From Actinomycetota bacterium (GTDB lineage Bacteria > Actinomycetota > Actinomycetes > S36-B12), in NCBI GenBank assembly GCA_030650795.1, contig JAUSDJ010000017.1, positions 130,699 through 194,698 on the forward strand: 64,000 nucleotides of DNA, read 5' to 3'. Under the pieces are notes generated by a model, which did no database searches, had not been told where the DNA came from, and saw only the letters and a list, made by a program, of their open reading frames with translations. This document shows, in pieces, positions 9,830 to 52,860 of this stretch. Position numbers and translations under genes: made by a program. The number at the start of each line of letters is the position of its first letter. Position 1 is the stretch's first letter.

Positions 9830-9975
9830 GCGCAGCACAACTTCATCCACGTGCTTGAAATTCAGGGGAAGTCCGGTGAGAGTCCGGCGCTGTCCCGCAA
9901 CCGTGTGCCTCTTTGAGGTGAGTCGGAGCACCTGACAAGCACGAGCGGCTCCATCCGTCGAGGTAACGGAATAGA
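9830..9975 (+). promoter_or_regulatory. cobalamin (B12) riboswitch
   Basis: Core GGGGAAGTCCGGTGAGAGTCCGGCGCTGTCCCGCAACCGTG (9864-9904) and a B12-box-like GAGTCGGAGCACCTGAC (9920-9936), directly upstream of a corrinoid transport/salvage operon. Boundaries are approximate. Confidence 0.85.
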
Positions 9976-10044
9976 GCCCCGAATCGATGGATGCCATCGG
10001 TCTTGCGGGCAATCGTTCACGACCCGCTCACCGAAAGAGAAAAA

Positions 10045-11091
10045 ATGTCACGTCTGACCCGATCCATCATTGGCGTTGCCGGAATCAGCCTGGCGGCTGC
10101 CACGCTCATGAGTCCGGCACTTGCCGCATCAACCAACACTGGTCTGTTCGGTGCGGCTGATCCAACATATGACGGCGTCTACCGCCAGTCGCTGTCGATC
10201 ATCGCCCTACAGCCCCTCAACAAGGTTCCAGCCGCCGCAACGACTTGGCTCAAGTCACAGCAGTGCGCTGACGGCACCTTCGTGTCCTACCGCGCATCAC
10301 TGGACACTCCATGCGCGGCCGCAGATCCTTCCAAGTTCAGCGGCCCTGACTCCAACTCAACGGCCCTCGCTGCAACCGCGTTGCGCGCAGTTCAGGACCA
10401 CGCTCCAGCTGACAGGGCCATCAACGCACTTGTTGCCAAGCAGAATGCAGATGGCGGATGGGGCTACACCCTCGGCGCCACCTCAGATGTGAACTCCACT
10501 GGATTGGTGCTGGCTGCTCTCCACGGAGCCGCAACGCTGCCAGCCAACGCGGCAGCAATGAACAAGGCGCAGGCCTACTTGACCAAGGCTCAGGTTCCCT
10601 GCACCGGAACTGGAACCTTCGGCTTGCCATACCAACCAGGTGGCAAAGCGGACTACCTGGCTTCAGCTCAAGGGCTGATCGGCATCGCCGGCACGCTGCC
10701 TGTTGCAAAACCGGCCAAGTACGCGCCAGTCAAGGGCACGAATTGCAACTCAGAATCTGAAGCACGCGTGTCTGCCTTCTTGGCGAATTCGCTTGTCGCC
10801 AACAAAGGTCAACTCCCGTCGGCAATGGACCCAAATCAGGCTGACTACAACGCGACAGCTGACGCCGTTGTCGCTCTGGCATCTGCCGCCAGAGGGCAAG
10901 AAGGCGTTGTTGCCGGATCGGCACTGCTGAAGCAGCACGTCACCGCTTTCACCCTCTTCGGGCCGAAGTTCAAGGCAGCCGCGGCAGCGACGCTGATCCA
11001 GGTGGCCCAAGCAACCGGAACCAACCCACGAGCATTCGGAAGTGAGAAGACCAACCTGGTCGCCAATCTTCTGAACTCGATCACGAAGTAA
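10045..11091 (+). CDS. exported prenyltransferase/terpenoid-cyclase-repeat (alpha/alpha-toroid) protein
   Basis: ORF 9991..11091. Start set at ATG 10045 (MSRLTRSIIGVAGISLAAATLMSPALA signal). Repeats QQCADGTFVSY and KQNADGGWGY. First gene after the riboswitch. Confidence 0.8.
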   Translation: MSRLTRSIIGVAGISLAAATLMSPALAASTNTGLFGAADPTYDGVYRQSLSIIALQPLNKVPAAATTWLKSQQCADGTFVSYRASLDTPCAAADPSKFSGPDSNSTALAATALRAVQDHAPADRAINALVAKQNADGGWGYTLGATSDVNSTGLVLAALHGAATLPANAAAMNKAQAYLTKAQVPCTGTGTFGLPYQPGGKADYLASAQGLIGIAGTLPVAKPAKYAPVKGTNCNSESEARVSAFLANSLVANKGQLPSAMDPNQADYNATADAVVALASAARGQEGVVAGSALLKQHVTAFTLFGPKFKAAAAATLIQVAQATGTNPRAFGSEKTNLVANLLNSITK

Positions 11092-11136: not shown

Positions 11137-11802
11137 GTGAAGCACACATGTCGACGAGCCGGAGCCACACTCGTGGCCGCGCTCGTCGGCGTGCTGCTTG
11201 CAGCCACCTTCGCGAGCAGCGCGCAGGCAGCGGCCTACCGCTACTGGACATACTGGAAAGCCAGCGACAGTGCCTGGCAGTTCGCGCAAGCCGGGCCAGC
11301 GGGCACCACGCCTGCCGACGGATCTGTTGAGGGCTGGCGCTTCGCTGTCTCATCTACCAGCGGTGACCTTGCAAATGAACCGCGATTCGATGCAACTCAT
11401 GCGTTCATTGACATATGCGGGAACACTGCTGCAATCGAGGGCAAGAAGCGGGTTGCGCTCGTTGTGGATCCCGGTCTTGCTGAGGCCGCACCGTCAGGTG
11501 ATCAGCCCGGACCGCTCAAGACCTACTGCGCCGTGGTGGCAAGCGACGCCAATGGTTATGACGTACTTCGAAGCGTTGGACCAGTACGTGTCGGCAGCGG
11601 ATTGATCTGCGCAATCGACAGCTATCCGACAAGCGGCTGCGCGGATGTGGTGGACCAGACTCAGCTAGGCGATGTCATGAGTACCGCTCCGAGCGTCCAG
11701 GCTGCAACAGCTGACCAATTCAGCGCTGTGCCAGTCATCATTGGTGTGGGCGCGCTGGGTGCACTGGCTGCTCTGGCATGGTGGTTGAGGAGAAGAAGAT
11801 GA
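11137..11802 (+). CDS. exported, C-terminally membrane-anchored protein (SCO2322-like as I recall it; DUF4430-like N-terminal motif)
   Basis: Signal peptide ...ASSAQA. YRYWTYWKASDSAWQFAQAGP...DGSVEGWRFAV. C-terminal TM helix VPVIIGVGALGALAALAWW followed by LRRRR. Confidence 0.75.
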   Translation: MKHTCRRAGATLVAALVGVLLAATFASSAQAAAYRYWTYWKASDSAWQFAQAGPAGTTPADGSVEGWRFAVSSTSGDLANEPRFDATHAFIDICGNTAAIEGKKRVALVVDPGLAEAAPSGDQPGPLKTYCAVVASDANGYDVLRSVGPVRVGSGLICAIDSYPTSGCADVVDQTQLGDVMSTAPSVQAATADQFSAVPVIIGVGALGALAALAWWLRRRR

Positions 11803-12941
11803 AGGCAGCCCTGCAACTGGGCGCGCGCGGATCTGCGCGCTGGTTGCACCCCGGGGCCTGGTGGGTCTGGGCTTTGGGCCTGGCAACTGCGGCCAGCCGA
11901 ACGCTGAACCCACTCTTGCTCGTGCTCATCATTGCCGTAGCTGGCACTGTCGTGAGCGCTCGGAAGCCGGATGCGCCATGGGCCCGCTCATTCATGTTCT
12001 TCGCAAAGCTCGGCATCGCCATCATCGTGGTTCGGATTCTTGTGCAACTGATCTTTGGTGCCGCAATCGGCACCACGACCCTGTTCACCTTGCCGGGTGT
12101 CGATCTGCCCGATTGGATGGCCGGAGTTCGACTTGGCGGCCCCGTAACTTTGGAAAGCCTGCTCTTGGCCTTCTACGACGGATTGCGACTGGCCACCATC
12201 ATCATGTGCATCGGCGCTGCAAACTCCCTGGCCTCACCGAGTCGATTGTTGAAGTCGGTACCCGCGGCGCTATATGAGGTCGGCGTGAGTGTGGTGGTGG
12301 CCTTGACCTTCACCCCGCAGTTGATCGCTGACGTCACCCGAGTGCAATCCGCGCGTCATCTGCGTGGTCGGGCAACCCGCGGACCTCGAGCGATTGCAGG
12401 TGCAGCAATGCCGGTGCTCGAAGGCGCCCTGGAAAGATCCGTGACCTTGGCTGCTGCAATGGACTCACGCGGCTATGGGCGCCGAAGTGACATGAGCAAC
12501 AAGCAGAAGAGGATCAATGCGGGTTTGCTGACTTTCGGACTTGTTGCCGCGTGCATCGGAACCTATGGCTTGGTCTCTGCAGGAACTCCGTGGCTTCTCA
12601 GCGCACCCATGCTGCTGGCCGGACTCGGTTCAAGCTTGCTCGCCATCAGCTGGTCGGCCCGCAATGCAGTTCGCTCGCGATACCGACCTGATCCGTGGTG
12701 GGCTCCAGAATGGGCCGTCGCCGGATCTGGCGTGGCGATAGCCGGCTGCTTCATCAGCGCGGCTTGGTGGTTTCCCGCCGGCTTTGCTACCGAAGTCGAT
12801 CCACCCACCTGGCCAGGACTGCCCGCACTTGCAGTGGTCGGACTACTTCTTGCCCTGACTCCCGCCATCACTGCACCTGAAGTTCCACGGATGTACGCCT
12901 TGCGAACTGAGCATCGGGATCTCGCAGGGGCGGCGGCATGA
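11799..12941 (+). CDS. ECF transporter transmembrane (T) component, CbiQ/EcfT family
   Basis: ORF 11778..12941. ATG 11799 overlaps the upstream stop (ATGA). Multi-TM with coupling motifs SARHLRGR and AMDSRGYG. Confidence 0.85.
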   Translation: MKAALQLGARGSARWLHPGAWWVWALGLATAASRTLNPLLLVLIIAVAGTVVSARKPDAPWARSFMFFAKLGIAIIVVRILVQLIFGAAIGTTTLFTLPGVDLPDWMAGVRLGGPVTLESLLLAFYDGLRLATIIMCIGAANSLASPSRLLKSVPAALYEVGVSVVVALTFTPQLIADVTRVQSARHLRGRATRGPRAIAGAAMPVLEGALERSVTLAAAMDSRGYGRRSDMSNKQKRINAGLLTFGLVAACIGTYGLVSAGTPWLLSAPMLLAGLGSSLLAISWSARNAVRSRYRPDPWWAPEWAVAGSGVAIAGCFISAAWWFPAGFATEVDPPTWPGLPALAVVGLLLALTPAITAPEVPRMYALRTEHRDLAGAAA

Positions 12942-14596
12942 TTCGGTTCGATCACGTGACGGTGACGTATCCCGGTCAAGCACGCCCGGTATTGCAGGAC
13001 GTAAATCTGGAGCTGCTCGAAGGCGAGCTCGTGCTCGTCGTTGGCAGAACGGGGAGCGGTAAAAGCACTCTGTTGCAAGCGATCAATGGGCTAGTGCCCC
13101 ACTTCACCGGTGGCACGCTGAACGGCGAAGTCACCATTGATGGTCGAAGCACGAGCACTCATCCACCTCGCGAACTTGCCGACCTCGTCGGTGTGGTGCC
13201 TCAGGACCCCGCAAGTGGATTTGTAGCCGACACTGTTGAGGAAGAACTGGCGTTCGGCATGGAATGTCTGGGCCTTCGGCCTGAGGTGATGCGCAGGCGA
13301 GTGGAAGAAACCCTTGATCTGCTTGGGCTTGCCGATCTTCGCAATCGCCCCCTGCTTACCTTGTCTGCCGGACAACAACAGCGCGTGGCTATCGGTGCCG
13401 TCCTCGCTGCCCATCCAAAGGTGCTTGTCCTAGATGAGCCAACGTCTGCACTTGACCCGGGGGCTGCTGAAGAAATTCTGGCGGCGCTGCAACGCCTTGT
13501 GCACGATCTCGGCATGACCGTGGTGATGGCCGAACACCGTCTCGAGCGGGTAGTGCAATACGCAGATCGGATCATTGTCGTTCCGGGCGATGCCCAGCAG
13601 ATTGTGATCGGCACTCCGCAGGAAGTCATGCGCGAAGCACCCATTGCGCCACCCGTGGTCGAACTCGGACGGATTGCCGGTTGGACTCCGCTGCCGCTCT
13701 CTGTGCGAGATGCCCGCCGCGCCGCCGGGCCATTGCGAGCGCTACTTGTCGGCCAAGCTCCGCCGTTGCGCGCTGTCCCAAGCCACGGCGCCAACGACAC
13801 CCTTGTTGAAGCAACAGATCTCACCGTTCGATACGGATCGCACTCTGCGCTGCGCAGTATTTCCCTTTCGGTACATCGCGGCGAAGTCGTGGCACTCATG
13901 GGCAGAAATGGCGCTGGAAAATCCACCCTGCTCAACGCGATGGTCGGCTTGCGTACCAGCACTTCTGGCCGCATCACCACCAATGGCAAGGACGCAAGCA
14001 CTCTCAAAGGCTCTGAACTCCTGCAGTCAGTGGGGCTGGTGCCACAAGTTCCCGGTGACCTGCTCGAAGCCACCACTGTCGCCGATGAATGCAAGGCCGC
14101 CGATCGCGACGCCCATGTTGATCCGGGTACCGCCCGAGCCTTGCTTGCCCTGCTTGCTCCCGAAATTCTTGACAGCACCCACCCGCGCGATCTATCCGAA
14201 GGACAACGGCTGTTACTGGCACTTGCAGTCGTCCTGGCCGCGCGGCCTCCGCTATTGCTCTTGGACGAGCCCACTCGGGGATTGGACTACCCAACGAAGC
14301 TTCGCCTGGCCGCCGTCCTTCGCGATCTTGCTGGTGCTGGTCACGCAATCATGCTGGCAACCCACGACGTCGAACTCGCAGCAGAGGTAGCCACGCGTGT
14401 GCTTGTGCTCGCCGAGGGCGAGATTGTTGCTGACGGCACCACGGCCGAAGTCGTGATGTCTTCGCCAATGTTCGCTCCTCAGGTCGCGAAGGTGCTGTCC
14501 CCGCACCCGTGGCTCACGGTTTCCGATGTCATCGCGACGATCGGCCCATTGATTCTGCGAACGCACGCGCCCATAAGTGGCGGAGCAGTGGGATGA
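12938..14596 (+). CDS. ECF transporter ATPase, fused A1-A2 (two ABC domains)
   Basis: Two Walker A motifs (GRTGSGKST, GRNGAGKST) and two signatures (LSAGQQQRV, LSEGQRLLL). ATGA overlap with the T component. Confidence 0.92.
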   Translation: MIRFDHVTVTYPGQARPVLQDVNLELLEGELVLVVGRTGSGKSTLLQAINGLVPHFTGGTLNGEVTIDGRSTSTHPPRELADLVGVVPQDPASGFVADTVEEELAFGMECLGLRPEVMRRRVEETLDLLGLADLRNRPLLTLSAGQQQRVAIGAVLAAHPKVLVLDEPTSALDPGAAEEILAALQRLVHDLGMTVVMAEHRLERVVQYADRIIVVPGDAQQIVIGTPQEVMREAPIAPPVVELGRIAGWTPLPLSVRDARRAAGPLRALLVGQAPPLRAVPSHGANDTLVEATDLTVRYGSHSALRSISLSVHRGEVVALMGRNGAGKSTLLNAMVGLRTSTSGRITTNGKDASTLKGSELLQSVGLVPQVPGDLLEATTVADECKAADRDAHVDPGTARALLALLAPEILDSTHPRDLSEGQRLLLALAVVLAARPPLLLLDEPTRGLDYPTKLRLAAVLRDLAGAGHAIMLATHDVELAAEVATRVLVLAEGEIVADGTTAEVVMSSPMFAPQVAKVLSPHPWLTVSDVIATIGPLILRTHAPISGGAVG

Positions 14597-15393
14597 CACC
14601 GGCAGTTCGCATTGGCAGGCGATCGCTACTCGCAATTCTTGCCACCTCGATCGTCGGTGGCATCGCATTCACGTGGCCACTCTTCGCCGCTCAAGATTCG
14701 ACCGCAGTCGCACATGCCAATGACGCACCTTGGCTGTTCGCGCTCGTGGTTCCACTCTTACTCGCAGTCGTACTCGCGCAATTCACCGATGGCGGCATGG
14801 ATGCAAAGGCGGTGGCTTTGCTCGGTGTGCTCGCTGCAGTGGTCTCCGCGATGCGCCCACTCGGTGGGGGCGCCGCGGGGTTGGAACCGATCTGGGTCAT
14901 CCTTGTGCTCGGAGGTCGAGCCTTGGGGCCTGGCTTCGGCTTCAGCCTTGGCGCCGTATCGCTCTTCGCTTCGGCATTGATGACGGGTGGAGTCGGTCCA
15001 TGGCTGCCGTTCCAGATGCTGGGTGCCGCTTGGGTTGGCTTGGGGGCGGGCCTGCTGCCGCGAGCAAGTGGCAAACGCGAACTTCTGTTGCTGTCTGCAT
15101 ATGGGGCTCTCGCCGCCTTCGCCTACGGGCTGCTGCTCAACTTGTGGTTTTGGCCCTTTAGCGCCGGGCTCCCGTCGGCTATCGCATTTGAGGCGGGCGC
15201 ACCACTAAGTCAGAATCTGCTGGCCTGGATCCACTTCACCATCGTCACAAGTCTTGGCTATGACATTCCGCGCGCAGTGCTCACCGTCGTCCTCATCATG
15301 CTGGCTGGCTCCACGATTCTCACTGCGCTGCGTAGGGCTTCGCGGCGCGCAAACTTCGGTGCCGTCCCCACCTTTGAAGGCGCTGCATTGTGA
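14593..15393 (+). CDS. polytopic membrane protein, probable ECF substrate-specific (S) component (corrinoid?)
   Basis: In the frame of ORF 14509..15393. ATG 14593 overlaps the ATPase stop (ATGA). Highly hydrophobic, about 266 aa. Sits last in the T-A/A-S order. Confidence 0.7.
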   Translation: MTPAVRIGRRSLLAILATSIVGGIAFTWPLFAAQDSTAVAHANDAPWLFALVVPLLLAVVLAQFTDGGMDAKAVALLGVLAAVVSAMRPLGGGAAGLEPIWVILVLGGRALGPGFGFSLGAVSLFASALMTGGVGPWLPFQMLGAAWVGLGAGLLPRASGKRELLLLSAYGALAAFAYGLLLNLWFWPFSAGLPSAIAFEAGAPLSQNLLAWIHFTIVTSLGYDIPRAVLTVVLIMLAGSTILTALRRASRRANFGAVPTFEGAAL

Positions 15394-16802
15394 AGGTTCA
15401 ATTGCTGGGCACTGGATCTGCGGATGGCTGGCCGAATCCATTCTGCGTCTGCGACTCTTGTGAAAGTCAGAGAGCTACCGGCAATGCGCGCGCATCAAGC
15501 TGCGCACTTATCGACAATGAGTTGCTGATCGACTGGGGTCCGACTCTGGCCAATTCCGCCAGCCGGTTCGGACTTTCCTTGAACAAGGTTCATCACATCT
15601 TGTTCACCCATGGTCATGCAGATCACCTCGCTCCTGAATTCCTGTTGTGGCGGTCGTGGATCAGCGACCTGAGAACTCTGCACATCTACGGACCGCCTCT
15701 CGCGATCTCCCGATTTGAACATTGGCTCGATCCGGACGCGCCAGTTGCCTTTCACGCTGTGCAAGCCGGAGATGAATTCACAGCGCGCACCGTGCAGGGC
15801 GATGTCCAAGTGCAAGTGCTGGCAGCGGCTCACGGACATGGCAATGGCGATCCCTTTGCCGATGAGGCCGTGCTCTATGACATCACGGGGGTAGACGGTG
15901 ACCGACTTCTCTATGCCACGGACACCGGTCCGTTGCAAGAACAAACTCTTGAAGCAGTGCGCGATCGCGACTTCACTTTGGTATTGATCGAGGAGACATT
16001 TGGCCGTCATCACACTCATGACACGGGGCATCTCGATCTGAAAACCCTGCCCGACACACTCGAGAATCTTCGGGTGGTCGGCGCGGTCACCAATGCGACC
16101 GATGTCGTCGCTTTCCATCTCAGCCATCACAATCCCCCGATTGCAGAACTCACTCTTGAACTTGCCGAGTTCGGCGCCCGCGCAGTTGATGACGGGACAG
16201 TCATTGACACTCGGACGACCCATGCGGTTCGCACTCTCGTGATTGGTGGAGCTCGCTCAGGCAAGTCAACATTTGCTGAGGCGCTCGCGATGAATCGAGG
16301 GAGAGTGACGTACCTCGCCACAGGCGGGGATCGCCCTGACGATGCCGAATGGCGAGAGCGGGTTGCCACACATCAAGCTCGCAGACCCGTGGCCTGGACA
16401 ACGGTGGAATCCACAGACGTTGTCGGAGTGCTGCGCACCCATGCAGGCGGGACTCTGCTCATCGACTGCATCAGCTTGTGGCTGACAGGTGTGCTCGACG
16501 AGTCCGGCATTTGGAATCGCGAAGTCGCCGACCAACACGACTCACTCGCCAGTATCAACATCAAGATCGATGAACTTGTTGCAGCGGTTCAGGCTTGCGA
16601 AGTTGATTTGATCATGGTCAGCAACGAGGCAGGACAAGGAGTCGTGCCCCCCACCTATGCGGGGCGACTGTTTCGCGATCTGCTCGGCATCACGAACGCC
16701 CGACTGGCCCAGGCGTGTTCTGCGGCCTACTTCATCGTGGCTGGCAGAGTTCTGCCACTCGCGACCGTCGCTTCACTGCTCGCAAAGGACAGTCATGAAT
16801 GA
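15390..16802 (+). CDS. cobU: fusion: PhnP-like MBL-fold metallohydrolase (N) :: adenosylcobinamide kinase/adenosylcobinamide-phosphate guanylyltransferase CobU (C)
   Basis: N-terminus: LLGTGSADGWPNPFCVCDSC and FTHGHADHL (HxHxDH). C-terminus: VIGGARSGKSTFAE P-loop, RVATHQARR, LIDCISLWL, MVSNEAGQGVVP. GTGA overlap with the upstream gene. Confidence 0.85.
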   Translation: MKVQLLGTGSADGWPNPFCVCDSCESQRATGNARASSCALIDNELLIDWGPTLANSASRFGLSLNKVHHILFTHGHADHLAPEFLLWRSWISDLRTLHIYGPPLAISRFEHWLDPDAPVAFHAVQAGDEFTARTVQGDVQVQVLAAAHGHGNGDPFADEAVLYDITGVDGDRLLYATDTGPLQEQTLEAVRDRDFTLVLIEETFGRHHTHDTGHLDLKTLPDTLENLRVVGAVTNATDVVAFHLSHHNPPIAELTLELAEFGARAVDDGTVIDTRTTHAVRTLVIGGARSGKSTFAEALAMNRGRVTYLATGGDRPDDAEWRERVATHQARRPVAWTTVESTDVVGVLRTHAGGTLLIDCISLWLTGVLDESGIWNREVADQHDSLASINIKIDELVAAVQACEVDLIMVSNEAGQGVVPPTYAGRLFRDLLGITNARLAQACSAAYFIVAGRVLPLATVASLLAKDSHE

Positions 16803-17859
16803 GTTGCCACAGGTCAGCATGCCCGATGAGCGGATGCGCGAAGCGGCCATGGCCCGGCAATTGCGATTGACCAAGCCCGCGGGAGCACTTGGCAGGCTTG
16901 AGCCGATCAGCGGATGGGTCAGCGCGGTGCAAGGCAAGTGCCCGCCAAGCAGCTTTGCTCAGCCAACCGTGGTGATCTTCGCTGGTGATCACGGTGTCGC
17001 TACAGCCGCCCGAACATCCGCCTATCCATCCGAAGTCACGGCACAGATGGTGCTCAATTTCATCGCCGGCGGAGCTGCCGTGAACGTACTCGCGCGCCAG
17101 GCCAATGCCTCAGTGCGTGTAGTCGATGTGAGCGTCGACGCAGACCTTTCCTATCTTGCATCGCTTGCACCCGAGGTCGCGCGGCATCGAATTCGACGTA
17201 GCAGCGGATCCATTGATCGGGAGAACGCCATCACAGTCGAGGAGGCACAAGCAGCATTTGATCTAGGTCGCCAGATTGCCGATGAAGAGATCGATAGCGG
17301 TGCCGATCTGCTGATCCCTGGAGACATGGGCATTGGAAACACCACGCCGGCAGCAACTCTCACCGGGCTAGTCACAAGCCTTGATGCCTCCAAAGTCACC
17401 GGCTTGGGAACCGGCATCGATGATCAGACGTGGATGCGCAAATGTGCAGCAGTGCGGGATGCCATGCATCGCGGAAGGCCAGAACTCGGCAACCCCATTG
17501 GACTGCTCGCGTGCGTGGGTGGAGCTGATTTCGCGGCCATGACTGGCTTCCTCGTTCAAGCCGCAATTCGCAAGACGCCGGTTATCTTGGACGGGACGAT
17601 TTCGGGAGCATGCGCGCTGGTTGCCGATCGCATCGACTATCGAGCCAAACTCTGGTGGCTTGCCGGGCATCGATCCTCAGAGCCAGCCCACACGGCTGCG
17701 CTCAACCACCTCGACCTTCAGCCGGTGATCGACTACTCGATGCGGCTTGGCGAAGGAACCGGCGCGCTGCTTGCACTCCCAGTCGTCCAAGCCGCTATCT
17801 CCTTGCTTGCTGAAATGGCAACCTTTGATGAGGCAGGAGTCAGCGAGCAGGATGCCTGA
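16795..17859 (+). CDS. cobT: nicotinate-nucleotide--dimethylbenzimidazole phosphoribosyltransferase
   Basis: ORF 16657..17859. Start ATG 16795 (MNELPQ...). Motifs FAGDHGV, YPSEVTAQM, GDMGIGNTT, RLGEGTGA. Confidence 0.92.
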   Translation: MNELPQVSMPDERMREAAMARQLRLTKPAGALGRLEPISGWVSAVQGKCPPSSFAQPTVVIFAGDHGVATAARTSAYPSEVTAQMVLNFIAGGAAVNVLARQANASVRVVDVSVDADLSYLASLAPEVARHRIRRSSGSIDRENAITVEEAQAAFDLGRQIADEEIDSGADLLIPGDMGIGNTTPAATLTGLVTSLDASKVTGLGTGIDDQTWMRKCAAVRDAMHRGRPELGNPIGLLACVGGADFAAMTGFLVQAAIRKTPVILDGTISGACALVADRIDYRAKLWWLAGHRSSEPAHTAALNHLDLQPVIDYSMRLGEGTGALLALPVVQAAISLLAEMATFDEAGVSEQDA

Positions 17860-18607
17860 TGCACTTCGGCTGGCGATTGGCACCTTGACCCGCTTGCCGG
17901 TTCCGGCTCCTCGCACGGTCTCTGGCTCCACTGCAGCTTGGGCAATGAGCCTTGCTCCGGTCATTGGCGCGCTACTCGCCTTGGTTTGCGGATTGCCCTT
18001 GCTGATTGACGCGAGCTCGTCGGTAACACTGCTGCTTGCGGCTAGTTCGATCGCACTCCTGGCATTCACAACTCGCGCAATCCACCTAGATGGCCTCGCC
18101 GATACTGCTGATGCGCTCGGCAGTGGCAAGCCAGCCGCACAGGCGCTCGAGATCGCTCGAAAATCCGATATCGGACCTTTCGGGGTCATCGTGCTTGTCC
18201 TGAATCTGATGCTGCAAGCCTTTGCGATTGGTGCTTGCGCCGAGGCAGGCCATGCGCTGATCGCTTTCATCGTTGCTGTCACCACTGGTCGAATCGCACT
18301 GACTTGGGCCTGCACTTCGTTCTGGCCGGCGGCCAGGACGGATGGTCTGGGCTCAGTGGTCGCGGGCAGAGTGCCACTTGCCGTGCCAATTTCCTGGGCC
18401 TTGGTGATGTGCATCGGCGCCTACCCCCTGCTGGGGATTGCGGGAGTGCTCGCAGCAGTGATCGGAATGATCGCCGCAACGGGGGTCCTCGTCATTACGC
18501 GACATCGCCTTGGTGGCGTCACCGGCGATGTGCTCGGCTGTGTCATCGAGTGCACAACGACAGCGTGCTTGATCGCGCTTGCTCTACTGCTCCCGCATTT
18601 GGGCTAG
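17852..18607 (+). CDS. cobS: adenosylcobinamide-GDP ribazoletransferase (cobalamin synthase)
   Basis: ORF 17747..18607. Start ATG 17852 (MPDALRLAIGTLTRLPVP). Motifs HLDGLADTADAL and GGVTGDVLG. 8-nt overlap with cobT. Confidence 0.9.
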   Translation: MPDALRLAIGTLTRLPVPAPRTVSGSTAAWAMSLAPVIGALLALVCGLPLLIDASSSVTLLLAASSIALLAFTTRAIHLDGLADTADALGSGKPAAQALEIARKSDIGPFGVIVLVLNLMLQAFAIGACAEAGHALIAFIVAVTTGRIALTWACTSFWPAARTDGLGSVVAGRVPLAVPISWALVMCIGAYPLLGIAGVLAAVIGMIAATGVLVITRHRLGGVTGDVLGCVIECTTTACLIALALLLPHLG

Positions 18608-48340: not shown

Positions 48341-48713
48341 GGGGACGAGTTGGCCTGTAAGCCGGGTTCTGTCTCGGCATAGCCGAGGGTGATCATCCAT
48401 CTGCGACCACTGTTGCCAGTGGCCTGGTGCGGCCTACCCACAGACATTGAGCGGGCAGCTCGTCTGCGCAGATCGCAAGCGATCCTCTTGGCCTTGCTCC
48501 AGGTGGGGTTTACCTAGCCGCAGCAGTCACCTGCCGCGCTGGTGGTCTCTTACACCACCGTTTCACCCTTACCTCGATTGCTCGAGGCGGTCTGTTTTCT
48601 GTGGCACTGTCCCGCGGGTCACCCCGGGTGGGCGTTACCCACCACCTCAGCCCTGTGGAGCCCGGACTTTCCTCGACACTTTCGTGCCGCGATCACCCGG
48701 CCAACTCGTCCGC
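48341..48713 (-). ncRNA. rnpB: RNase P RNA, bacterial type A
   Basis: The minus strand reads CGGACGAGTTGGCCGGGTGATCGCGGCACGAAAGTGTCGAGGAAAGTCCGGGCTCCACAGGGC...GGTAAGGGTGAAACGGTGGTGTAAGAGACCACC...GACAGAACCCGGCTTACAGGCCAACTCGTCCCC. P1 is formed by GACGAGTTGGCC/GGCCAACTCGTC. Ends are approximate. Confidence 0.93.
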
Positions 48714-49184: not shown

Positions 49185-49976
49185 ATGCTGATCCTGCTGC
49201 CGCCAAGTGAAGCCAAATCAGCGCCGGTCACCAGCCTTCCCTCAGCCCTCTCCTTCGACGAACTGAGTGCAGTTCGCCAACGAGTACGACGTGCGCTGAT
49301 CAAAATGAGCAGCGGCAATCAAGCGCGAGCGAGCAAGGCCTTGGGCCTGGGGCACACGCAATTGGATCAGCTTGCGATGAATGCCAAACTCGATACTGCT
49401 GCATGCGGGCCAGCGATCGATGTCTACTCAGGCGTTGTGTTCGAGGCACTCGCCGCCGACAGCATGACCCTGATTCAACGCAAGCGAATGCACGATCATG
49501 TAGTGATCGCAACTGGCTTGTACGGCCTGGTACGCCCTTTGGATTCAATCGCGCCGTATCGACTGAGCGCGAATTCGAAGGTCACGGGCCTGCCAACTTT
49601 GCCGAGTCTGTGGCGCAAACCGATTGCTCGCATTCTCGAAAGTTCAGGCGGCCCGATCCTTGACCTGCGTTCGCAGGCATATGTGACCCTCGCGCCGATC
49701 CCCCGGGATTGCCTGTCACGATCGATTTCGGTGCGTGTGCTCCAAGAACAAGACGGAAAGCGCTCAGTTGTGAGCCACTTCAACAAGGCGACCAAGGGCG
49801 CTCTTGTCGGCGCCTTGATTCGCAAAGGTGAATTGCCCGCGTCACTTCCAGTGCTGCTGAAGCAGCTGAGGGTGCTCGGCTACGAATGCGAGCTTCAGGA
49901 ACTACCCAATGCCGCAGCGCGGCTGGACATCATCACGCACTACACACCGGGGAAGGTGTCGACTTCACGCAAGTGA
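49185..49976 (+). CDS. yaaA: YaaA-family (DUF328) peroxide stress protein
   Basis: MLILLPPSEAK...YSGVVFEAL...LRSQAY. Confidence 0.85.
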   Translation: MLILLPPSEAKSAPVTSLPSALSFDELSAVRQRVRRALIKMSSGNQARASKALGLGHTQLDQLAMNAKLDTAACGPAIDVYSGVVFEALAADSMTLIQRKRMHDHVVIATGLYGLVRPLDSIAPYRLSANSKVTGLPTLPSLWRKPIARILESSGGPILDLRSQAYVTLAPIPRDCLSRSISVRVLQEQDGKRSVVSHFNKATKGALVGALIRKGELPASLPVLLKQLRVLGYECELQELPNAAARLDIITHYTPGKVSTSRK

Positions 49977-51148
49977 CCAGACTCCGCGAATCCGTGCAAG
50001 GAGTTATTGCCATCGGGAAACCACGTCAAAGTTGATATCGAGCAAGGCCGCAACTCCATGCGGTACACACTCTCGACGGGAGCGTCGATCGTGATCGCTA
50101 CGAGTAGTTTGATCGGACTCACATGCGAGACCACCAGAATGCTCTTGCTAGGAAATGAGTAGATGAGTTCACGGCGTGCGCGAGCAACACGTTCTTGCAC
50201 CTGAGTGAAGGACTCCCCACCCGGTGGCGCATAGTCAACTGATTCCAGCCACTCTCGCAATTCATCGGGCCACTTGGACTGCACATCAGCGAAGGTGAGG
50301 CCATCCCAGTCCCCGAAGGCACATTCGGCGAGGTCGTCCATCACGACCAGCTCGTTGGCCAGATCACCGCTGAGAATTGCTGCTGTTTGGCGAGTACGAA
50401 GCAATGGCGAACTGACAACCAGATCGAATTTGAATCTGGCGGCAAGCTCGTGTGCGGCGGCTTGGGCCTGAGCCTCGCCAATTGCGGCGAGTCCTGGATC
50501 TGCCCCGCCACGGCCGCTGAATCGCCTCTCGAGACTGAATTGGGTTGCGCCGTGACGCACCAGCACAGCTGTGGTGGGTGTTTCCATCTCTTCCCAGCCG
50601 ACCATCTTGTTTGGCGCTCGCTGCTCCCGGGCAATCGCACCTTGTGCGAAGGCTTCCTCGGCGTCACCGATGACATCGACTGCATCCTGCACCAAGAGGC
50701 CTGAGTCAAAGATGCGCTTGATCAGCGCATTGCCGCCGTCTTGTACTTGATCGAGGACTTCATTGACGAGGGAATCGGCATGAGCATTCGCTGATCGCGG
50801 AACCCAGGTGTAGGTGACTTGCCCCGGAGGGAAGATGGCGCGCACTTGCAGAGCAAGCTCGCGCATGTCTGGGTGCTTGATCTTCCAGCGCCCACTCATC
50901 TGCTCCACGATCAGCTTGGAATCAAGCCGGACCTCGACGACAGCAGTGGAATCAAGTTCGTACGCATGCGCCAAGCCCGCGAGTGCACCGCGATACTCGG
51001 CAACATTGTTCGTGGCCAAGCCGATGTGCTCGGCCAACTCAGCAAGGACTGCACTGGTAGCAGCATCCTTGACAACAGCGCCATATGCGGCCGGCCCTGG
51101 ATTGCCTCTCGAGCCGCCATCAGCTTCAACGATAAAGGCTCGACTCAT
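49940..51148 (-). CDS. bifunctional RNase H / CobC-like histidine phosphatase (Rv2228c-like)
   Basis: ORF 49940..51199. Start set at ATG 51148 (MSRAFIVEADGGSRGNPGPAAYG...NNVAEYRG = RNase HI), then VLVRHGATQFS...RFSGRGG histidine-phosphatase RHG motif. ATGA overlap with the upstream gene. Confidence 0.88.
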   Translation of the reverse strand: MSRAFIVEADGGSRGNPGPAAYGAVVKDAATSAVLAELAEHIGLATNNVAEYRGALAGLAHAYELDSTAVVEVRLDSKLIVEQMSGRWKIKHPDMRELALQVRAIFPPGQVTYTWVPRSANAHADSLVNEVLDQVQDGGNALIKRIFDSGLLVQDAVDVIGDAEEAFAQGAIAREQRAPNKMVGWEEMETPTTAVLVRHGATQFSLERRFSGRGGADPGLAAIGEAQAQAAAHELAARFKFDLVVSSPLLRTRQTAAILSGDLANELVVMDDLAECAFGDWDGLTFADVQSKWPDELREWLESVDYAPPGGESFTQVQERVARARRELIYSFPSKSILVVSHVSPIKLLVAITIDAPVESVYRMELRPCSISTLTWFPDGNNSLHGFAESGHLREVDTFPGV

Positions 51149-51891
51149 TGCAGTCCGGACTCCGCTGTGCGCACCAGGATCCGGCGGCATTCCTCGCATC
51201 GAACAACCTCGTCCGGATCAATCGATCGCAGTCGTTCGAGTTCATTCGGCGGAAGCTGAATTCGACAACCCTCACACTGTCCACGGTGGAGATGCGCAGC
51301 CCCAACCCCGTTCTGATCAGCCCTGATCTTCTCGTATAGCGACAGCAGGTCCGTAGGAATGCGGCTGGCCAGTTCTTTGCGATCAACCACCACGACATCG
51401 CGCTCAACATCAATCTCGGCAACGAGCGCCGCCACCGCACTTGTCAACGACTCGCGAACAGCCAGCGCTTCCTCATGCTGCGAAGCGAGCTGACGGACGG
51501 CCGCTTGGGCGCCCTCCACTCGCTCCATGACTTCGAGTTCAATATCTTCAAGCTCAGACTGCCTGCGCGCCAGTGAGACCAATTCATGCTGAAGATTCTG
51601 CAACTGCTTGGGATCCCCGATCGATCCGGAATCCAACAGGAGTTGATCCTTGACTGCGCGCTCGCGAACCTGATCGACATCTGCATCGGCTCGCGCCTGA
51701 TCGCGTTCCAGATCGCCGGCGATCACTCGGGCGGCAACATGTTCATCATGCAGTCGCTGAATTCGCTGATTCAGATCGGCCAGCTCCTGCTTCTGCGGGA
51801 GCGTGCGATCACGGTGCTCGAGTTGAGTGGAGCGGGTATCCAATCGCTGTAAGTCAAGAAGCAACTTCTGCGCAGCGGCTTCGGCCTTCAT
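51145..51891 (-). CDS. coiled-coil C4 zinc-ribbon protein (COG1579, Rv2229c-like)
   Basis: ORF 51145..51957. Start ATG 51891 (MKAEAAAQKLL...). C-terminal CEGCRIQLPP...VRCEECRRIL. Confidence 0.82.
   Translation of the reverse strand: MKAEAAAQKLLLDLQRLDTRSTQLEHRDRTLPQKQELADLNQRIQRLHDEHVAARVIAGDLERDQARADADVDQVRERAVKDQLLLDSGSIGDPKQLQNLQHELVSLARRQSELEDIELEVMERVEGAQAAVRQLASQHEEALAVRESLTSAVAALVAEIDVERDVVVVDRKELASRIPTDLLSLYEKIRADQNGVGAAHLHRGQCEGCRIQLPPNELERLRSIDPDEVVRCEECRRILVRTAESGLQ

Positions 51892-52784: not shown

Positions 52785-52860
<76 letters not shown>

What the first reader, a model, noticed from the sequence alone, without database searches (positions are those of the whole stretch)
15390..16802. 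PhnP-like metallo-beta-lactamase domain fused to CobU: candidate corrinoid remodelling enzyme
This is a single 470-aa ORF. The N-terminal ~270 aa has a PhnP-type MBL signature: a Cys-rich Zn knuckle GTGSADGWPNPFCVCDSC and HxHxDH as FTHGHADHL. PhnP itself is a phosphodiesterase. The C-terminal ~180 aa is a complete CobU, with P-loop GGARSGKS and THQARR, which contains a His at the position I would expect for the guanylylation residue. Canonical CobU proteins are about 170-200 aa stand-alone enzymes. The gene sits between the ECF S component and cobT-cobS, and both junctions overlap. This leads to a speculative but testable idea. The MBL domain could cleave the nucleotide-loop phosphodiester of imported non-cognate cobamides such as pseudocobalamin, yielding cobinamide-phosphate. 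The fused CobU would then activate this to Cbi-GDP, and CobS would add alpha-ribazole. That would be a CbiZ-independent remodelling route.
Basis: partly seen in the sequence, partly recalled or inferred. Interest (0 to 1): 0.65.

Follow-up and report, generated by a model that had tools for sequence, protein, structure and literature searches.

The report
Candidate new vitamin B12 remodelling enzyme
A conserved actinobacterial gene fuses a PhnP-like phosphodiesterase to the B12-salvage enzyme CobU, and the same phosphodiesterase also sits unfused at the end of B12-importer operons, so it is probably an unrecognised enzyme that cuts the lower-ligand loop off imported B12 analogues so they can be rebuilt into usable cobalamin.

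Summary
Window 15390-16802 (+) is one 470-aa gene: an N-terminal PhnP-like metallo-beta-lactamase (MBL) domain joined by a short linker to a complete CobU. It lies in an AdoCbl-riboswitch operon (ECF importer, MBL-CobU, CobT, CobS) in which every junction from the T component to CobS overlaps by 4-8 nt. It is not an artefact: relatives were found in 389 species genomes, and 76 of 79 loci examined have both halves in one uninterrupted frame. All PhnP catalytic residues that could be aligned are present and invariant, but the protein is not PhnP (40 bits against a cut-off of 272). New evidence: unfused orthologues (48% identical; Dietzia, Nocardia, metagenomes) are the last, overlapping gene of cobalamin-riboswitch BtuF-BtuC-BtuD operons in 5 of 5 representatives. 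This MBL clade is therefore tied to corrinoid import through two unrelated transporter types, the genomic signature reported for CbiR and (from memory) CbiZ. The main rival, a missing CobC phosphatase, is weakened because the window encodes an Rv2228c-type RNase H/CobC-like protein. The proposed chemistry is already known from CbiR (2020); only the catalyst family and the CobU fusion would be new. No biochemistry exists. Best reading: cobamide nucleotide-loop phosphodiesterase feeding CobU (confidence about 0.55).

The parts
9837..9981 (+). AdoCbl riboswitch aptamer at the head of the operon
   Evidence: Rfam RF01482, 65.3 bits against a gathering score of 50, full-length match. Orthologous operons carry a cobalamin-clan riboswitch at the same place in 10 of 10 Nanopelagicales-type loci tested, counting the window.
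10045..11091 (+). SCO2321-family protein (weak terpene-cyclase-like alpha/alpha-toroid repeats), first gene after the riboswitch; function unknown, possibly an accessory corrinoid-binding component (inference)
   Evidence: NCBIfam NF053823, E 1.7e-60 but 205 bits, below the cut-off of 300. Weak SQHop_cyclase and Prenyltrans hits. Gene call; the mechanical ORF starts at 9991. Conserved upstream of the ECF genes in related loci.
11173..11802 (+). SCO2322-family protein, function unknown
   Evidence: NCBIfam NF040672, 163.9 bits against a cut-off of 85; PF28005 in the precomputed annotation; conserved in related loci.
11799..12941 (+). ECF transporter T (CbiQ-type) component
   Evidence: Pfam CbiQ, 30.2 bits against 25; gene call; 4-nt overlaps with both neighbours.
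12938..14596 (+). ECF transporter fused double ATPase (A-A')
   Evidence: Two ABC_tran domains, E 1.3e-59. ECF_ATPase TIGR04521 and TIGR04520 score about 314 bits, just below their cut-offs.
14593..15393 (+). ECF transporter S (substrate-specific) component; substrate inferred to be a corrinoid
   Evidence: Pfam ECF_trnsprt, 31.8 bits against 30.7; gene call; its stop overlaps the start of the fusion gene (GTGA).
15390..16802 (+). MBL-CobU fusion gene (470 aa), the finding itself
   Evidence: AF2 model: mean pLDDT 86.7, pTM 0.72.
15390..16205 (+). PhnP-like MBL phosphoesterase domain (residues 1-272). Cys knuckle C19/C21/C24; H74-x-H76-x-D78-H79; H148; D178; H214/D216; H243/H246
   Evidence: All listed residues are invariant in 31 fusions of 49-79% identity to the window protein. 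They align with PhnP C21/C23/C26, H76/H78/D80/H81, D164, H200/D202 and H222/H225; H148 was not covered by that alignment. Nearest solved folds are 6b9v, 3qh8/3md7, YhfI, PhnP, RNase Z and Apyc1. Mean pairwise identity is 57.6%, slightly above the CobU half.
16206..16232 (+). Short, poorly conserved interdomain linker (residues 273-281)
   Evidence: Mean pairwise identity 28% with no invariant column; 16-22 residues between the conserved D268 and G286 columns in 30 of 31 sequences, 28 in one. Strand 271-273 is followed by strand 281-286 in the model.
16233..16802 (+). CobU domain (adenosylcobinamide kinase / AdoCbi-P guanylyltransferase), residues 282-470, plus stop codon
   Evidence: Pfam CobU covers profile positions 1-167 of 168. 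P-loop G286-S293 and H328 are invariant. H328 aligns with His46 of 1c9k. Foldseek target TM-score 0.86 to 1c9k.
16795..17859 (+). CobT (NaMN:DMB phosphoribosyltransferase)
   Evidence: Pfam DBI_PRT 417 bits; TIGR03160 402.7 bits against 319.3; the start overlaps the fusion gene by 8 nt.
17852..18607 (+). CobS (cobamide synthase), last gene of the operon
   Evidence: Pfam CobS 140 bits against 23.2; gene call; followed by the convergent gcvT.
49940..51199 (-). Rv2228c-type RNase H / CobC-like histidine phosphatase, about 33 kb away: the likely provider of the final dephosphorylation step, so that step is not 'missing'
   Evidence: NF005567 462 bits against 326; TIGR03162 ribazole_cobC 128 bits, below its cut-off of 163. 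His_Phos_1 E 8e-50. PDB 3hst (Rv2228c) E 1.5e-41; CobC chains 6e4b and 6nru about 3e-17.

Best explanation
The N-terminal domain is a binuclear-metal phosphodiesterase of the PhnP branch of the MBL superfamily. In one actinobacterial clade it has been recruited to process imported corrinoids. Proposed sequence of events: when AdoCbl is scarce the riboswitch turns the operon on; the ECF transporter imports complete cobamides (for example pseudocobalamin) as well as cobinamide; the MBL domain hydrolyses the phosphodiester of the nucleotide loop and releases the unwanted lower-ligand riboside; the corrinoid product (cobinamide-phosphate, or cobinamide if the other P-O bond is cut) goes to the covalently attached CobU, which phosphorylates it if needed and guanylylates it to AdoCbi-GDP; CobT activates DMB, CobS joins the two, and the Rv2228c-type CobC-like phosphatase removes the 5'-phosphate. 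Shown here: the domain architecture, intact catalytic residues in both halves, operon structure and riboswitch, conservation of the fusion, and the linkage of the unfused orthologue to BtuFCD importers. Inferred: the substrate (a cobamide), which bond is cut, hand-over to CobU, and what the transporters carry.
For: (1) Catalytic competence. Every PhnP residue covered by the profile alignment (C21/C23/C26, H76/H78/D80/H81, D164, H200/D202, H222/H225) has an invariant counterpart in 31 fusions. The roles of those PhnP residues (metal ligands, general acid His200, structural Zn site) are from my memory. The MBL half is as conserved as the CobU half: 57.6% against 54.4% mean pairwise identity. (2) Family chemistry. 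The nearest solved folds are all phosphoester or phosphoanhydride hydrolases acting on ribose-phosphate or nucleotide substrates: PhnP, 6b9v, the Brucella GMP-binding protein, YhfI, RNase Z, Apyc1 and PDE1 (PMC3169410). (3) Near-obligate fusion to CobU, whose substrates are exactly the possible corrinoid products of loop hydrolysis: 76 of 79 loci are in one frame, and relatives occur in 389 species genomes. (4) Position. The gene overlaps the corrinoid-importer S gene upstream and CobT downstream, under an AdoCbl riboswitch. The ECF S gene lies directly upstream in 74 of 80 related loci. A riboswitch is present in 10 of 10 Nanopelagicales-type loci tested. (5) Independent context. Unfused orthologues (Dietzia P0403 is 48% identical over the full length, E 1e-80) nest inside the fusion clade. 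They are the fourth, overlapping gene of Peripla_BP_2 - FecCD - ABC_tran operons in 5 of 5 representatives, each preceded by an RF00174 riboswitch, with no biosynthetic gene in the operon. (6) Transporter and loop-assembly adjacency is how the known remodelling hydrolase CbiR was recognised: 80% of cbiR homologues lie next to cobamide biosynthesis genes and 25% next to transporters, 'similarly to some cbiZ homologs' (PMC7733943). (7) The loop-hydrolysis route through CobU and CobS works in vivo for CbiR. (8) A CobC-type phosphatase is already encoded in the window, and no CbiZ, CbiR (AP_endonuc_2) or ring-synthesis gene appeared among the window proteins scanned.
Against: There is no biochemical or genetic datum for any member of this clade. 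The wider clade is not B12-specific: group-2 relatives in Paenibacillaceae and Chloroflexota, and a deep-branching stand-alone member, have no corrinoid neighbours. In Rhodococcus, Prescottella and [Mycobacterium] crassicus the fusion lacks these cob and transporter neighbours and no riboswitch was detected; the Rhodococcus neighbours scanned are not cob genes. Mycolicibacillus has an unfused copy with no cob context. PhnP-family relatives also cleave phosphoanhydrides (PMC3169410), so a pyrophosphatase activity is possible. Cobinamide salvage alone would already explain importer + CobU + CobT + CobS, so remodelling is not required by the operon. Only 2 of 9 Nocardioidaceae-type loci show a riboswitch at threshold. 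Whole genomes could not be searched, so anticorrelation with CbiZ and CbiR is untested. How the enzyme would spare the cell's own cobalamin is unknown.
Confidence: 0.55

Rival explanations
1. The MBL domain is a non-orthologous replacement of CobC. It would dephosphorylate AdoCbl-5'-phosphate or alpha-ribazole-5'-phosphate, completing the CobU-CobT-CobS nucleotide-loop pathway encoded in the operon.
For: The operon encodes CobU, CobT and CobS but no phosphatase. No strict histidine-phosphatase signature was found within about 10 kb of the fusion in the fetched loci, although that pattern also missed the window's own CobC-like gene. Fusing enzymes of one pathway is common. One PhnP-family structure is described as a 'diphosphatase' (6b9v).
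Against: The window itself encodes an Rv2228c-type RNase H/CobC-like phosphatase (NF005567 462 bits against 326; CobC structures at about 3e-17), and Rv2228c is the predicted alpha-ribazole phosphatase of M. tuberculosis (PMC12713380). The unfused orthologue rides on BtuFCD importer operons that contain no CobS or CobT, a context that fits a role in processing imports rather than finishing synthesis. PhnP-type MBL enzymes are diesterases, and monoesterase activity is unusual in this fold (my own knowledge).
Confidence: 0.1
2. The MBL domain is a nucleotide pyrophosphatase acting on a pathway dinucleotide or nucleotide. Candidates are alpha-DMB adenine dinucleotide (giving alpha-ribazole-P), AdoCbi-GDP (proofreading or recycling), or GTP/GDP/PPi to pull the guanylyltransferase reaction forward.
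For: The Brucella PhnP-family protein copurifies with GMP and cleaves GMPPNP between the alpha and beta phosphates (PMC3169410). 6b9v is titled a diphosphatase. CobU uses GTP and releases PPi. An alpha-DAD intermediate that could be cleaved to alpha-RP is mentioned in PMC12713380.
Against: This does not explain the unfused form in importer-only operons, nor the Nocardioidaceae-type loci that lack CobT next to the fusion. Hydrolysing AdoCbi-GDP or GTP next to CobU would be futile. Inorganic pyrophosphatase is ubiquitous (my own knowledge).
Confidence: 0.12
3. The MBL domain processes imported corrinoids in some other way than loop phosphodiester hydrolysis. It might release corrinoid from a carrier or conjugate, act on a different ester bond, or serve as a cytoplasmic acceptor or chaperone for the transporter.
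For: Linkage to two importer types under riboswitch control shows only that it acts with corrinoid import. Two of three group-2 relatives also follow ABC importers of other substrates, which suggests a general theme of hydrolysing what was imported.
Against: The only phosphodiester in a cobamide is in the nucleotide loop (my own knowledge). The catalytic residues are invariant, so a purely binding role is unlikely. The fusion to CobU in particular points to cobinamide or cobinamide-phosphate as the product.
Confidence: 0.1
4. The MBL domain has no corrinoid-specific role. It would be a generic phosphodiesterase or RNase-like housekeeping domain that happened to fuse to CobU in an actinobacterial ancestor and has been carried along.
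For: The fusion in Rhodococcus and relatives lies among unrelated genes without a riboswitch. Mycolicibacillus and deep-branching or group-2 relatives have non-B12 contexts. One source names a Rhodococcus ruber member 'Ribonuclease BN'.
Against: A passenger would not be re-found, unfused, as the overlapping last gene of cobalamin-riboswitch BtuFCD operons in 5 of 5 cases. It would also not stay as conserved as CobU, with every catalytic residue invariant, across relatives found in 389 species genomes.
Confidence: 0.08

Closest known systems
CbiR (Akkermansia muciniphila Amuc_1679), cobamide phosphodiesterase, AP endonuclease 2 / TIM-barrel superfamily (Mok et al. 2020, PMC7733943)
   Same: It has the function proposed here: metal-dependent hydrolysis of the nucleotide-loop phosphoribosyl bond to give Cbi-P plus the alpha-riboside, followed by rebuilding through CobU and CobS. 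It also has the same genomic signature: adjacency to nucleotide-loop assembly genes (80%) and to transporters (25%).
   Different: The fold and ancestry are unrelated: TIM barrel PF01261 against MBL PF12706, with no PF01261 hit on the fusion. CbiR is stand-alone, whereas this enzyme is usually fused to CobU. CbiR activity is demonstrated; this one is only predicted. Taxonomy also differs: the paper puts 76% of CbiR homologues in Chlorobi, Chloroflexi and Proteobacteria, whereas this clade is in Actinomycetota.
CbiZ (adenosylcobinamide amidohydrolase; Rhodobacter sphaeroides, archaea)
   Same: It initiates cobamide remodelling or salvage and is often encoded next to corrinoid transporters (PMC7733943; PMC12931638).
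   Different: CbiZ cuts the amide bond of the aminopropanol linker to give cobyric acid (my own knowledge), so CbiB and CobD are needed to rebuild. It belongs to a different family (PF01955), which does not hit the fusion.
PhnP (E. coli, PDB 3g1p), 5-phosphoribosyl 1,2-cyclic phosphate phosphodiesterase of the C-P lyase pathway
   Same: It is the closest characterised homologue by profile (E 4.9e-12) and among the top folds. It shares the N-terminal CxCxxC knuckle, HxHxDH, the bridging Asp, the His200/Asp202 pair and the H-x-S-H motif. Its substrate is a phosphodiester on an alpha-configured ribosyl (my own knowledge).
   Different: The fusion scores only 40 bits against the TIGR03307 cut-off of 272 and is about 23% identical. 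There are no phn genes nearby. It is fused to CobU and sits in B12 operons.
CobU (Salmonella enterica, PDB 1cbu/1c9k) and other solved CobU proteins (8ykc, 9vis, 7tm8)
   Same: The C-terminal half is a complete CobU: full-length Pfam match, P-loop, His46 equivalent, and target TM-score 0.75-0.86.
   Different: Canonical CobU is a stand-alone protein of about 180-200 aa. Here it carries a 272-aa N-terminal hydrolase. The NCBIfam equivalog score (157) falls just below the cut-off (161).
Uncharacterised PhnP-family proteins with solved structures: 6b9v ('new diphosphatase from the PhnP family') and Brucella melitensis BAB1_1016 (3md7, 3qh8; binds GMP/AMP)
   Same: These are the best structural matches to the MBL half (Foldseek E about 1e-13). 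The Brucella protein has a di-Mn centre with a nucleotide phosphate bound.
   Different: Identity is 18-20%. They are stand-alone with no corrinoid context reported, and the activity described is on phosphoanhydrides rather than diesters.

Membership tests
CobU (PF02283; adenosylcobinamide kinase / AdoCbi-P guanylyltransferase) | Full-length match to the family profile above the curated threshold | tested here: met
   Pfam CobU 165.4 bits against 27, covering profile positions 1-167 of 168. Note that the NCBIfam equivalog NF004469 gives 157 bits against a cut-off of 161, marginally below.
CobU (PF02283) | P-loop GxxxxGKS for NTP binding, and the His that is guanylylated (His46 of Salmonella CobU; the role is from my memory) | tested here: met
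   G286-G-A-R-S-G-K-S293 and H328 are invariant in 31 sequences. H328 aligns with His46 of 1c9k.
CobU (PF02283) | CobU fold | tested here: met
   Foldseek target TM-score 0.86 to 1c9k_A and 0.79 to 8ykc_A, E about 1e-12.
CobU (PF02283) | Kinase and guanylyltransferase activities | not testable with these tools
   This needs an enzyme assay or complementation of a cobU mutant.
MBL superfamily, Lactamase_B_2 (PF12706) | Profile match above threshold, plus the HxHxDH motif and the downstream His/Asp/His metal ligands | tested here: met
   56.3 bits against 27. H74, H76, D78, H79, H148, D178 and H243 are invariant. The model has the MBL fold.
PhnP (TIGR03307, equivalog) | Score above the curated equivalog cut-off | tested here: not met
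   40.3 bits against 272.25. Stand-alone relatives score 36-81 bits.
PhnP (TIGR03307) | Encoded within a phn (C-P lyase) operon | tested here: not met
   The neighbours are ECF transporter genes, cobT and cobS. The 80 related loci show the same neighbours rather than another operon.
PhnP (TIGR03307) | Catalytic residues and the CxCxxC...H structural Zn site | tested here: met
   PhnP C21/C23/C26, H76/H78/D80/H81, D164, H200/D202 and H222/H225 align with C19/C21/C24, H74/H76/D78/H79, D178, H214/D216 and H243/H246. So it works like a PhnP-type diesterase but is not PhnP.
CbiR (cobamide phosphodiesterase, AP_endonuc_2 PF01261) | Homology to the AP endonuclease 2 TIM-barrel family | tested here: not met
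   No PF01261 hit on the fusion at E up to 0.01; the fold is MBL. It is a possible functional analogue, not a member.
CbiR (functional class: cobamide remodelling hydrolase) | Encoded next to nucleotide-loop assembly genes and/or corrinoid transporters | tested here: met
   ECF S gene, MBL-CobU, CobT, CobS in the window. The ECF S gene is upstream in 74 of 80 loci. Unfused form in riboswitch-BtuFCD operons in 5 of 5 cases.
CbiR (functional class) | Hydrolysis of cobamides to Cbi-P plus the alpha-riboside | not testable with these tools
   This needs HPLC-MS assays of purified protein.
CbiZ (PF01955) | Homology to the CbiZ amidohydrolase family | tested here: not met
   No such Pfam hit on the fusion or on any window protein scanned.
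CobC (histidine phosphatase, PF00300 / TIGR03162) | His_Phos_1 fold with the RHG motif | tested here: not met
   The fusion has no His_Phos_1 hit. A separate CobC-like protein is encoded at 49940-51199 (-).
Cobalamin-riboswitch regulon | A cobalamin-clan riboswitch upstream on the same strand, with no intervening terminator-separated unit | tested here: met
   RF01482 at 9837-9981, followed by eight same-strand genes. The six junctions from the T component to CobS overlap by 4-8 nt. Termination or readthrough was not tested.

The most novel reading that the evidence does not exclude
This MBL clade is a third, convergently evolved family of cobamide-remodelling hydrolases, after CbiZ and CbiR. 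It exists either fused to CobU, so that the corrinoid product is handed directly to guanylylation, or as the terminal gene of BtuFCD importer operons. It is widespread in abundant freshwater Nanopelagicales-type actinobacteria and in soil Nocardioidaceae and Mycobacteriales. That would let them convert cyanobacterial pseudocobalamin and other non-cognate cobamides into cobalamin, in lineages currently scored only as 'cobinamide salvagers' or 'B12 dependents'.
Probability: 0.5. Interest if true: 0.8.

Novelty: new variant of a known kind. Interest (0 to 1): 0.68.

Why it matters
Cobamide remodelling decides which organisms can use which B12 analogues, and so it shapes cross-feeding in lakes, soils and guts. 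A February 2026 review lists only CbiZ, CbiR and certain CobS enzymes as remodelling catalysts (PMC12931638). Genome-based predictions of B12 ecology depend on recognising such genes.

If this MBL domain is a cobamide phosphodiesterase, hundreds of actinobacterial species would gain the predicted ability to remodel complete cobamides such as pseudocobalamin. That includes relatives of the most abundant freshwater bacterioplankton. Their gene is currently annotated merely as 'bifunctional adenosylcobinamide kinase/guanylyltransferase'.

It would also be a clean example of convergent evolution of one reaction on three unrelated folds, and of a hydrolase fused to the enzyme that uses its product. 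The hypothesis can be tested directly, because cultured hosts carry either the fused form (Rhodococcus, Prescottella, Nocardioides, Mycolicibacter) or the unfused form (Dietzia, Nocardia).

Tried and rejected
(1) Frameshift or two-gene artefact: rejected. 76 of 79 loci have both halves in one uninterrupted frame. In the three exceptions (one MAG series) the halves are in different frames, and in L047 several neighbouring genes are split too.

(2) Bona fide PhnP: rejected. The score is 40 bits against a cut-off of 272, and there is no phn context.

(3) Antibiotic beta-lactamase: no support. Only the generic Lactamase_B model hits, at 19.8 bits, below its cut-off of 22.7, and the structural neighbours are phosphoesterases.

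(4) Horizontally acquired island: rejected. GC is uniform at about 59% and the operon sits among core housekeeping genes (ctaC ... gcvT, pepA, lpd, sucB, lipB, lipA, glnA, glnE). From memory this resembles the M. tuberculosis Rv2200-Rv2230 region, where cobT-cobS occupy the same place.

(5) Strict PROSITE-type scan for a CobC histidine phosphatase ([LIVMF]xRHG[EQ]xxxN) in the window and 81 loci: zero hits. This was a false negative for the window, whose CobC-like protein has VRHGAT, so the negative result for the other loci should not be relied on.

(6) Looking for a B12 link in the wider MBL clade (group 2; Paenibacillaceae, Anaerolineales): none in 3 of 3 loci. One deep-branching stand-alone member also has none.

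(7) Sequence similarity of the SCO2321-like and SCO2322-like proteins to known B12 binders (transcobalamin and similar): none. Only terpene-cyclase repeats came up.

(8) Literature searches for any report of an MBL-CobU fusion or an MBL remodelling enzyme: none found. The 2024 Villa and Escalante-Semerena review is not held.

Full report
**Observation**

Window 15390-16802 (+) is a single 470-aa ORF with a GTG start. Pfam places Lactamase_B_2 at residues 45-227 (E 4e-15) and a full-length CobU domain at 282-456 (E 1e-48).

The start codon overlaps the stop of the upstream ECF S-component gene (GTGA). The CobT ATG at 16795 overlaps the last codons of the fusion (ATGAATGA). With the gene calls of an identical public contig, the operon reads as follows:
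- AdoCbl riboswitch, 9837-9981 (RF01482, 65 bits)
- SCO2321-like protein
- SCO2322-family protein
- ECF T component
- ECF double ATPase
- ECF S component
- MBL-CobU
- CobT
- CobS

Every junction from the T component to CobS overlaps by 4-8 nt. The convergent gcvT gene closes the unit. The rest of the window is core actinobacterial chromosome with uniform GC of about 59%, so the operon is native.

**The fusion is real and conserved**

A search of about 5.8 billion proteins returned 2398 significant hits. Nearly all of the 120 best are 457-497 aa with both domains, down to 49% identity. NCBI names them only 'bifunctional adenosylcobinamide kinase/adenosylcobinamide-phosphate guanylyltransferase'.

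Scanning one genome per species (185,579 species) with the MBL half alone found relatives in 389 genomes. The 80 best are Actinomycetota wherever the record title is informative. They include Nanopelagicales-type lake MAGs, Nocardioidaceae, and cultured Rhodococcus, Prescottella, Nocardioides and [Mycobacterium] crassicus.

In 76 of 79 loci the MBL and CobU parts are in one frame with no stop. The three exceptions come from one MAG series; their halves are in different frames, and in L047 the neighbouring genes are also split.

Both halves are under similar constraint. Mean pairwise identity is 57.6% for the MBL half (62 invariant columns) and 54.4% for CobU (46 invariant columns). The linker is short and unconserved.

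**What the two halves are**

The C-terminal half is a complete CobU:
- invariant P-loop G286-S293;
- invariant H328, aligned with His46 of Salmonella CobU; that His46 is the guanylylated residue is from my memory;
- target TM-score of 0.86 to 1c9k.

The AF2 model is confident (pLDDT 86.7, pTM 0.72).

The N-terminal half is most like the PhnP branch of the MBL superfamily. The best solved folds are 6b9v ('diphosphatase from the PhnP family'), a Brucella protein crystallised with GMP/AMP, YhfI, PhnP, RNase Z, Apyc1 and PDE1. All of these are phosphoester or phosphoanhydride hydrolases of ribose-phosphate or nucleotide substrates.

A profile alignment to E. coli PhnP maps its residues C21/C23/C26, H76/H78/D80/H81, D164, H200/D202 and H222/H225 onto C19/C21/C24, H74/H76/D78/H79, D178, H214/D216 and H243/H246 of the fusion. 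All of these are invariant in the 31-sequence alignment. Their roles in PhnP (metal ligands, general acid, structural Zn site) are from my memory of the PhnP structural papers.

The protein is nevertheless not PhnP. It scores 40 bits against the equivalog cut-off of 272, and there are no phn genes nearby. No curated family covers it or its relatives.

**Context of the fusion**

In 74 of the 80 related loci the ECF S gene lies directly upstream. CobS follows wherever the contig extends, apart from L044 and the three Mycobacteriales loci. CobT lies between them in the Nanopelagicales-type loci but is absent from the locus in the Nocardioidaceae type.

A cobalamin-clan riboswitch heads the operon in 10 of 10 Nanopelagicales-type loci tested, counting the window. 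It reaches threshold in only 2 of 9 Nocardioidaceae-type loci.

In Rhodococcus, Prescottella and [Mycobacterium] crassicus the fusion lacks these cob and transporter neighbours, and no riboswitch was detected. In Rhodococcus sp. ACT016 the neighbours are a Cys/Met PLP enzyme, a rhodanese, a serine beta-lactamase and a HAD hydrolase.

**The decisive new evidence: unfused orthologues**

An exhaustive profile search of 1.84 billion representative proteins found stand-alone relatives of about 270 aa. They fall into two groups.

The distant group (Anaerolineales, Paenibacillus, Cohnella, Clostridiales) has no corrinoid neighbours in 3 of 3 loci. In two of those loci the gene follows carbohydrate-type ABC importer genes. 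One deep-branching stand-alone member also has none. The wider clade is therefore not B12-specific.

The close, actinobacterial group keeps the family signatures and nests inside the fusion clade in a neighbour-joining tree, beside the Rhodococcus and Prescottella fusions. The Dietzia protein is 48% identical to the window's MBL half over its full length (E 1e-80).

Five independent representatives were examined: Dietzia kunjamensis, Nocardia vermiculata and three metagenomic clusters. In every one the gene is the fourth gene of a Peripla_BP_2 - FecCD - ABC_tran (BtuF-BtuC-BtuD type) operon, and it starts on the last base of the ATPase gene. All five operons are preceded by an RF00174 cobalamin riboswitch. 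None contains a cobamide biosynthetic gene.

One orthologous MBL clade is thus attached to corrinoid import through two unrelated transporter families, with or without CobU. At one Rhodococcus locus the same gene occurs with CobU (450 aa) or without it (310 aa) in different strains.

**Mechanism**

A cobamide contains a single phosphodiester. It links the aminopropanol arm to the 3'-oxygen of the alpha-riboside of the lower ligand (my own knowledge). A PhnP-type diesterase that travels with corrinoid importers, and is usually welded to the enzyme that uses cobinamide and cobinamide-phosphate, is most simply explained as the enzyme that opens that loop. The fused CobU then makes AdoCbi-GDP, CobT activates DMB and CobS rebuilds cobalamin.

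This is what CbiR of Akkermansia does (AdoCbl to AdoCbi-P plus alpha-ribazole). CbiR was recognised by the same genomic signature: 80% of its homologues lie next to cobamide biosynthesis genes, and 25% lie next to transporters, 'similarly to some cbiZ homologs' (PMC7733943). What would be new is a third, unrelated catalyst and its fusion to CobU.

A February 2026 review lists only CobS of V. cholerae, CbiZ and CbiR as remodelling catalysts (PMC12931638). Four literature searches found no mention of an MBL-type enzyme or of this fusion. [quoted passage not shown]

**Rivals**

The strongest prior rival was that the MBL replaces the 'missing' CobC phosphatase. However, the window encodes an Rv2228c-type RNase H/CobC-like protein at 49940-51199 (-):
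- NF005567 at 462 bits against a cut-off of 326;
- His_Phos_1 at E 8e-50;
- CobC structures at about 3e-17.

Rv2228c is the predicted alpha-ribazole phosphatase of M. tuberculosis (PMC12713380). An importer-only operon is also an odd home for the last biosynthetic step.

A pyrophosphatase role (alpha-DAD, AdoCbi-GDP or GTP) is suggested by the Brucella relative, which cleaves GMPPNP between the alpha and beta phosphates (PMC3169410). It does not explain the BtuFCD context or the loci without CobT.

A generic passenger domain is contradicted by the conservation and by the independent importer linkage.

I put the loop-phosphodiesterase reading at about 0.55, the CobC-like role at 0.10, a pyrophosphatase at 0.12, other processing of imported corrinoids at 0.10 and an unrelated function at 0.08.

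**Limits**

- Everything about substrate and bond is inference; no member of the clade has been assayed.
- Whole genomes could not be searched, so co-occurrence with CbiZ, CbiR, a stand-alone CobU or ring synthesis is unknown.
- Cobinamide salvage alone would justify importer + CobU + CobT + CobS.
- The fusion also occurs in non-cob contexts.
- The neighbour-joining tree is approximate.
- The interdomain geometry of the model could not be inspected.

**Verdict**

The finding is a new variant (new catalyst family and architecture) of a known kind of system, cobamide salvage and remodelling. It can be tested directly in cultured Rhodococcus, Nocardioides, Dietzia or Nocardia.

Noticed in passing
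window 49940-51199 (-): RNase H + histidine-phosphatase (CobC-like) fusion, the orthologue of M. tuberculosis Rv2228c (NF005567, 462 bits). It is flanked by a CT398-like/Zn-ribbon gene (51145-51957) and a NIF3 gene (51888-52721); from memory this matches the Rv2229c-Rv2230c neighbourhood. Its RHG motif is VRHGAT, which a strict PROSITE-type pattern misses.
   Followed up: yes
window 10045-11091 and 11173-11802 (+): The two genes between the AdoCbl riboswitch and the ECF transporter genes are an SCO2321-like protein with weak terpene-cyclase-like alpha/alpha-toroid repeats and an SCO2322-family protein. Both are conserved upstream of the ECF module in most related loci; SCO2321 is not detected in the Nocardioidaceae type. 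They might be extracytoplasmic corrinoid-binding accessories. From memory, transcobalamin also has an alpha/alpha-barrel domain, but no sequence similarity to known B12 binders was found.
   Followed up: partly
L034 13291-14064 (+); similar hits in L024, L032, L041, L042, L053, L063, L076: In several related loci a short (about 257 aa) divergent CobT-like ORF (37-43% identity to part of CobT) follows CobS. It is absent from the window, where gcvT follows CobS directly. Its function is unknown.
   Followed up: no
L058 (Rhodococcus sp. ACT016) against L088 (Rhodococcus sp. SGAir0479): At the same chromosomal locus (Cys_Met_Meta_PP upstream, serine beta-lactamase and HAD hydrolase downstream), one strain has the MBL-CobU fusion (450 aa) and the other an MBL-only gene (310 aa). 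This is a recent gain or loss of the CobU half.
   Followed up: partly
L017, L022, L031 against the window, L002, L010, L024, L028 against L046: Orthologous operons are headed by different cobalamin-clan riboswitch classes: AdoCbl-II (RF01689), AdoCbl (RF01482) or Cobalamin (RF00174).
   Followed up: no
L013, L014, L016, L020: Lake MAG contigs titled 'Bifidobacterium breve' carry the Nanopelagicales-type operon at 55-60% identity to the window. The taxonomic label in the records looks wrong.
   Followed up: no
L082 (Cohnella soli) and L083 (metagenome): Distant stand-alone relatives of the MBL domain sit directly after ABC importer genes of other kinds (SBP_bac_1 plus two BPD_transp_1 genes; or a permease plus an ABC ATPase with a TOBE_2 domain). 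This suggests a broader theme in which this MBL clade hydrolyses an imported phosphodiester; the substrates are unknown.
   Followed up: partly
window 48342-48708 (-) and 52785-52858 (+): Bacterial RNase P RNA class A (309 bits) and one tRNA gene. Both are ordinary.
   Followed up: no
window 54246-56237 (-), 31117-32406 (+), 636-1355 (+): Three sizeable ORFs (663, 429 and 239 aa) have no Pfam match at the thresholds used.
   Followed up: no
L065 (Nocardioides dubius), L044: These are variants of the operon. N. dubius has MBL-CobU and CobS next to gcvT and pepA but no ECF module within 10 kb upstream. L044 has the ECF module and MBL-CobU followed directly by gcvT, with no CobS.
   Followed up: no
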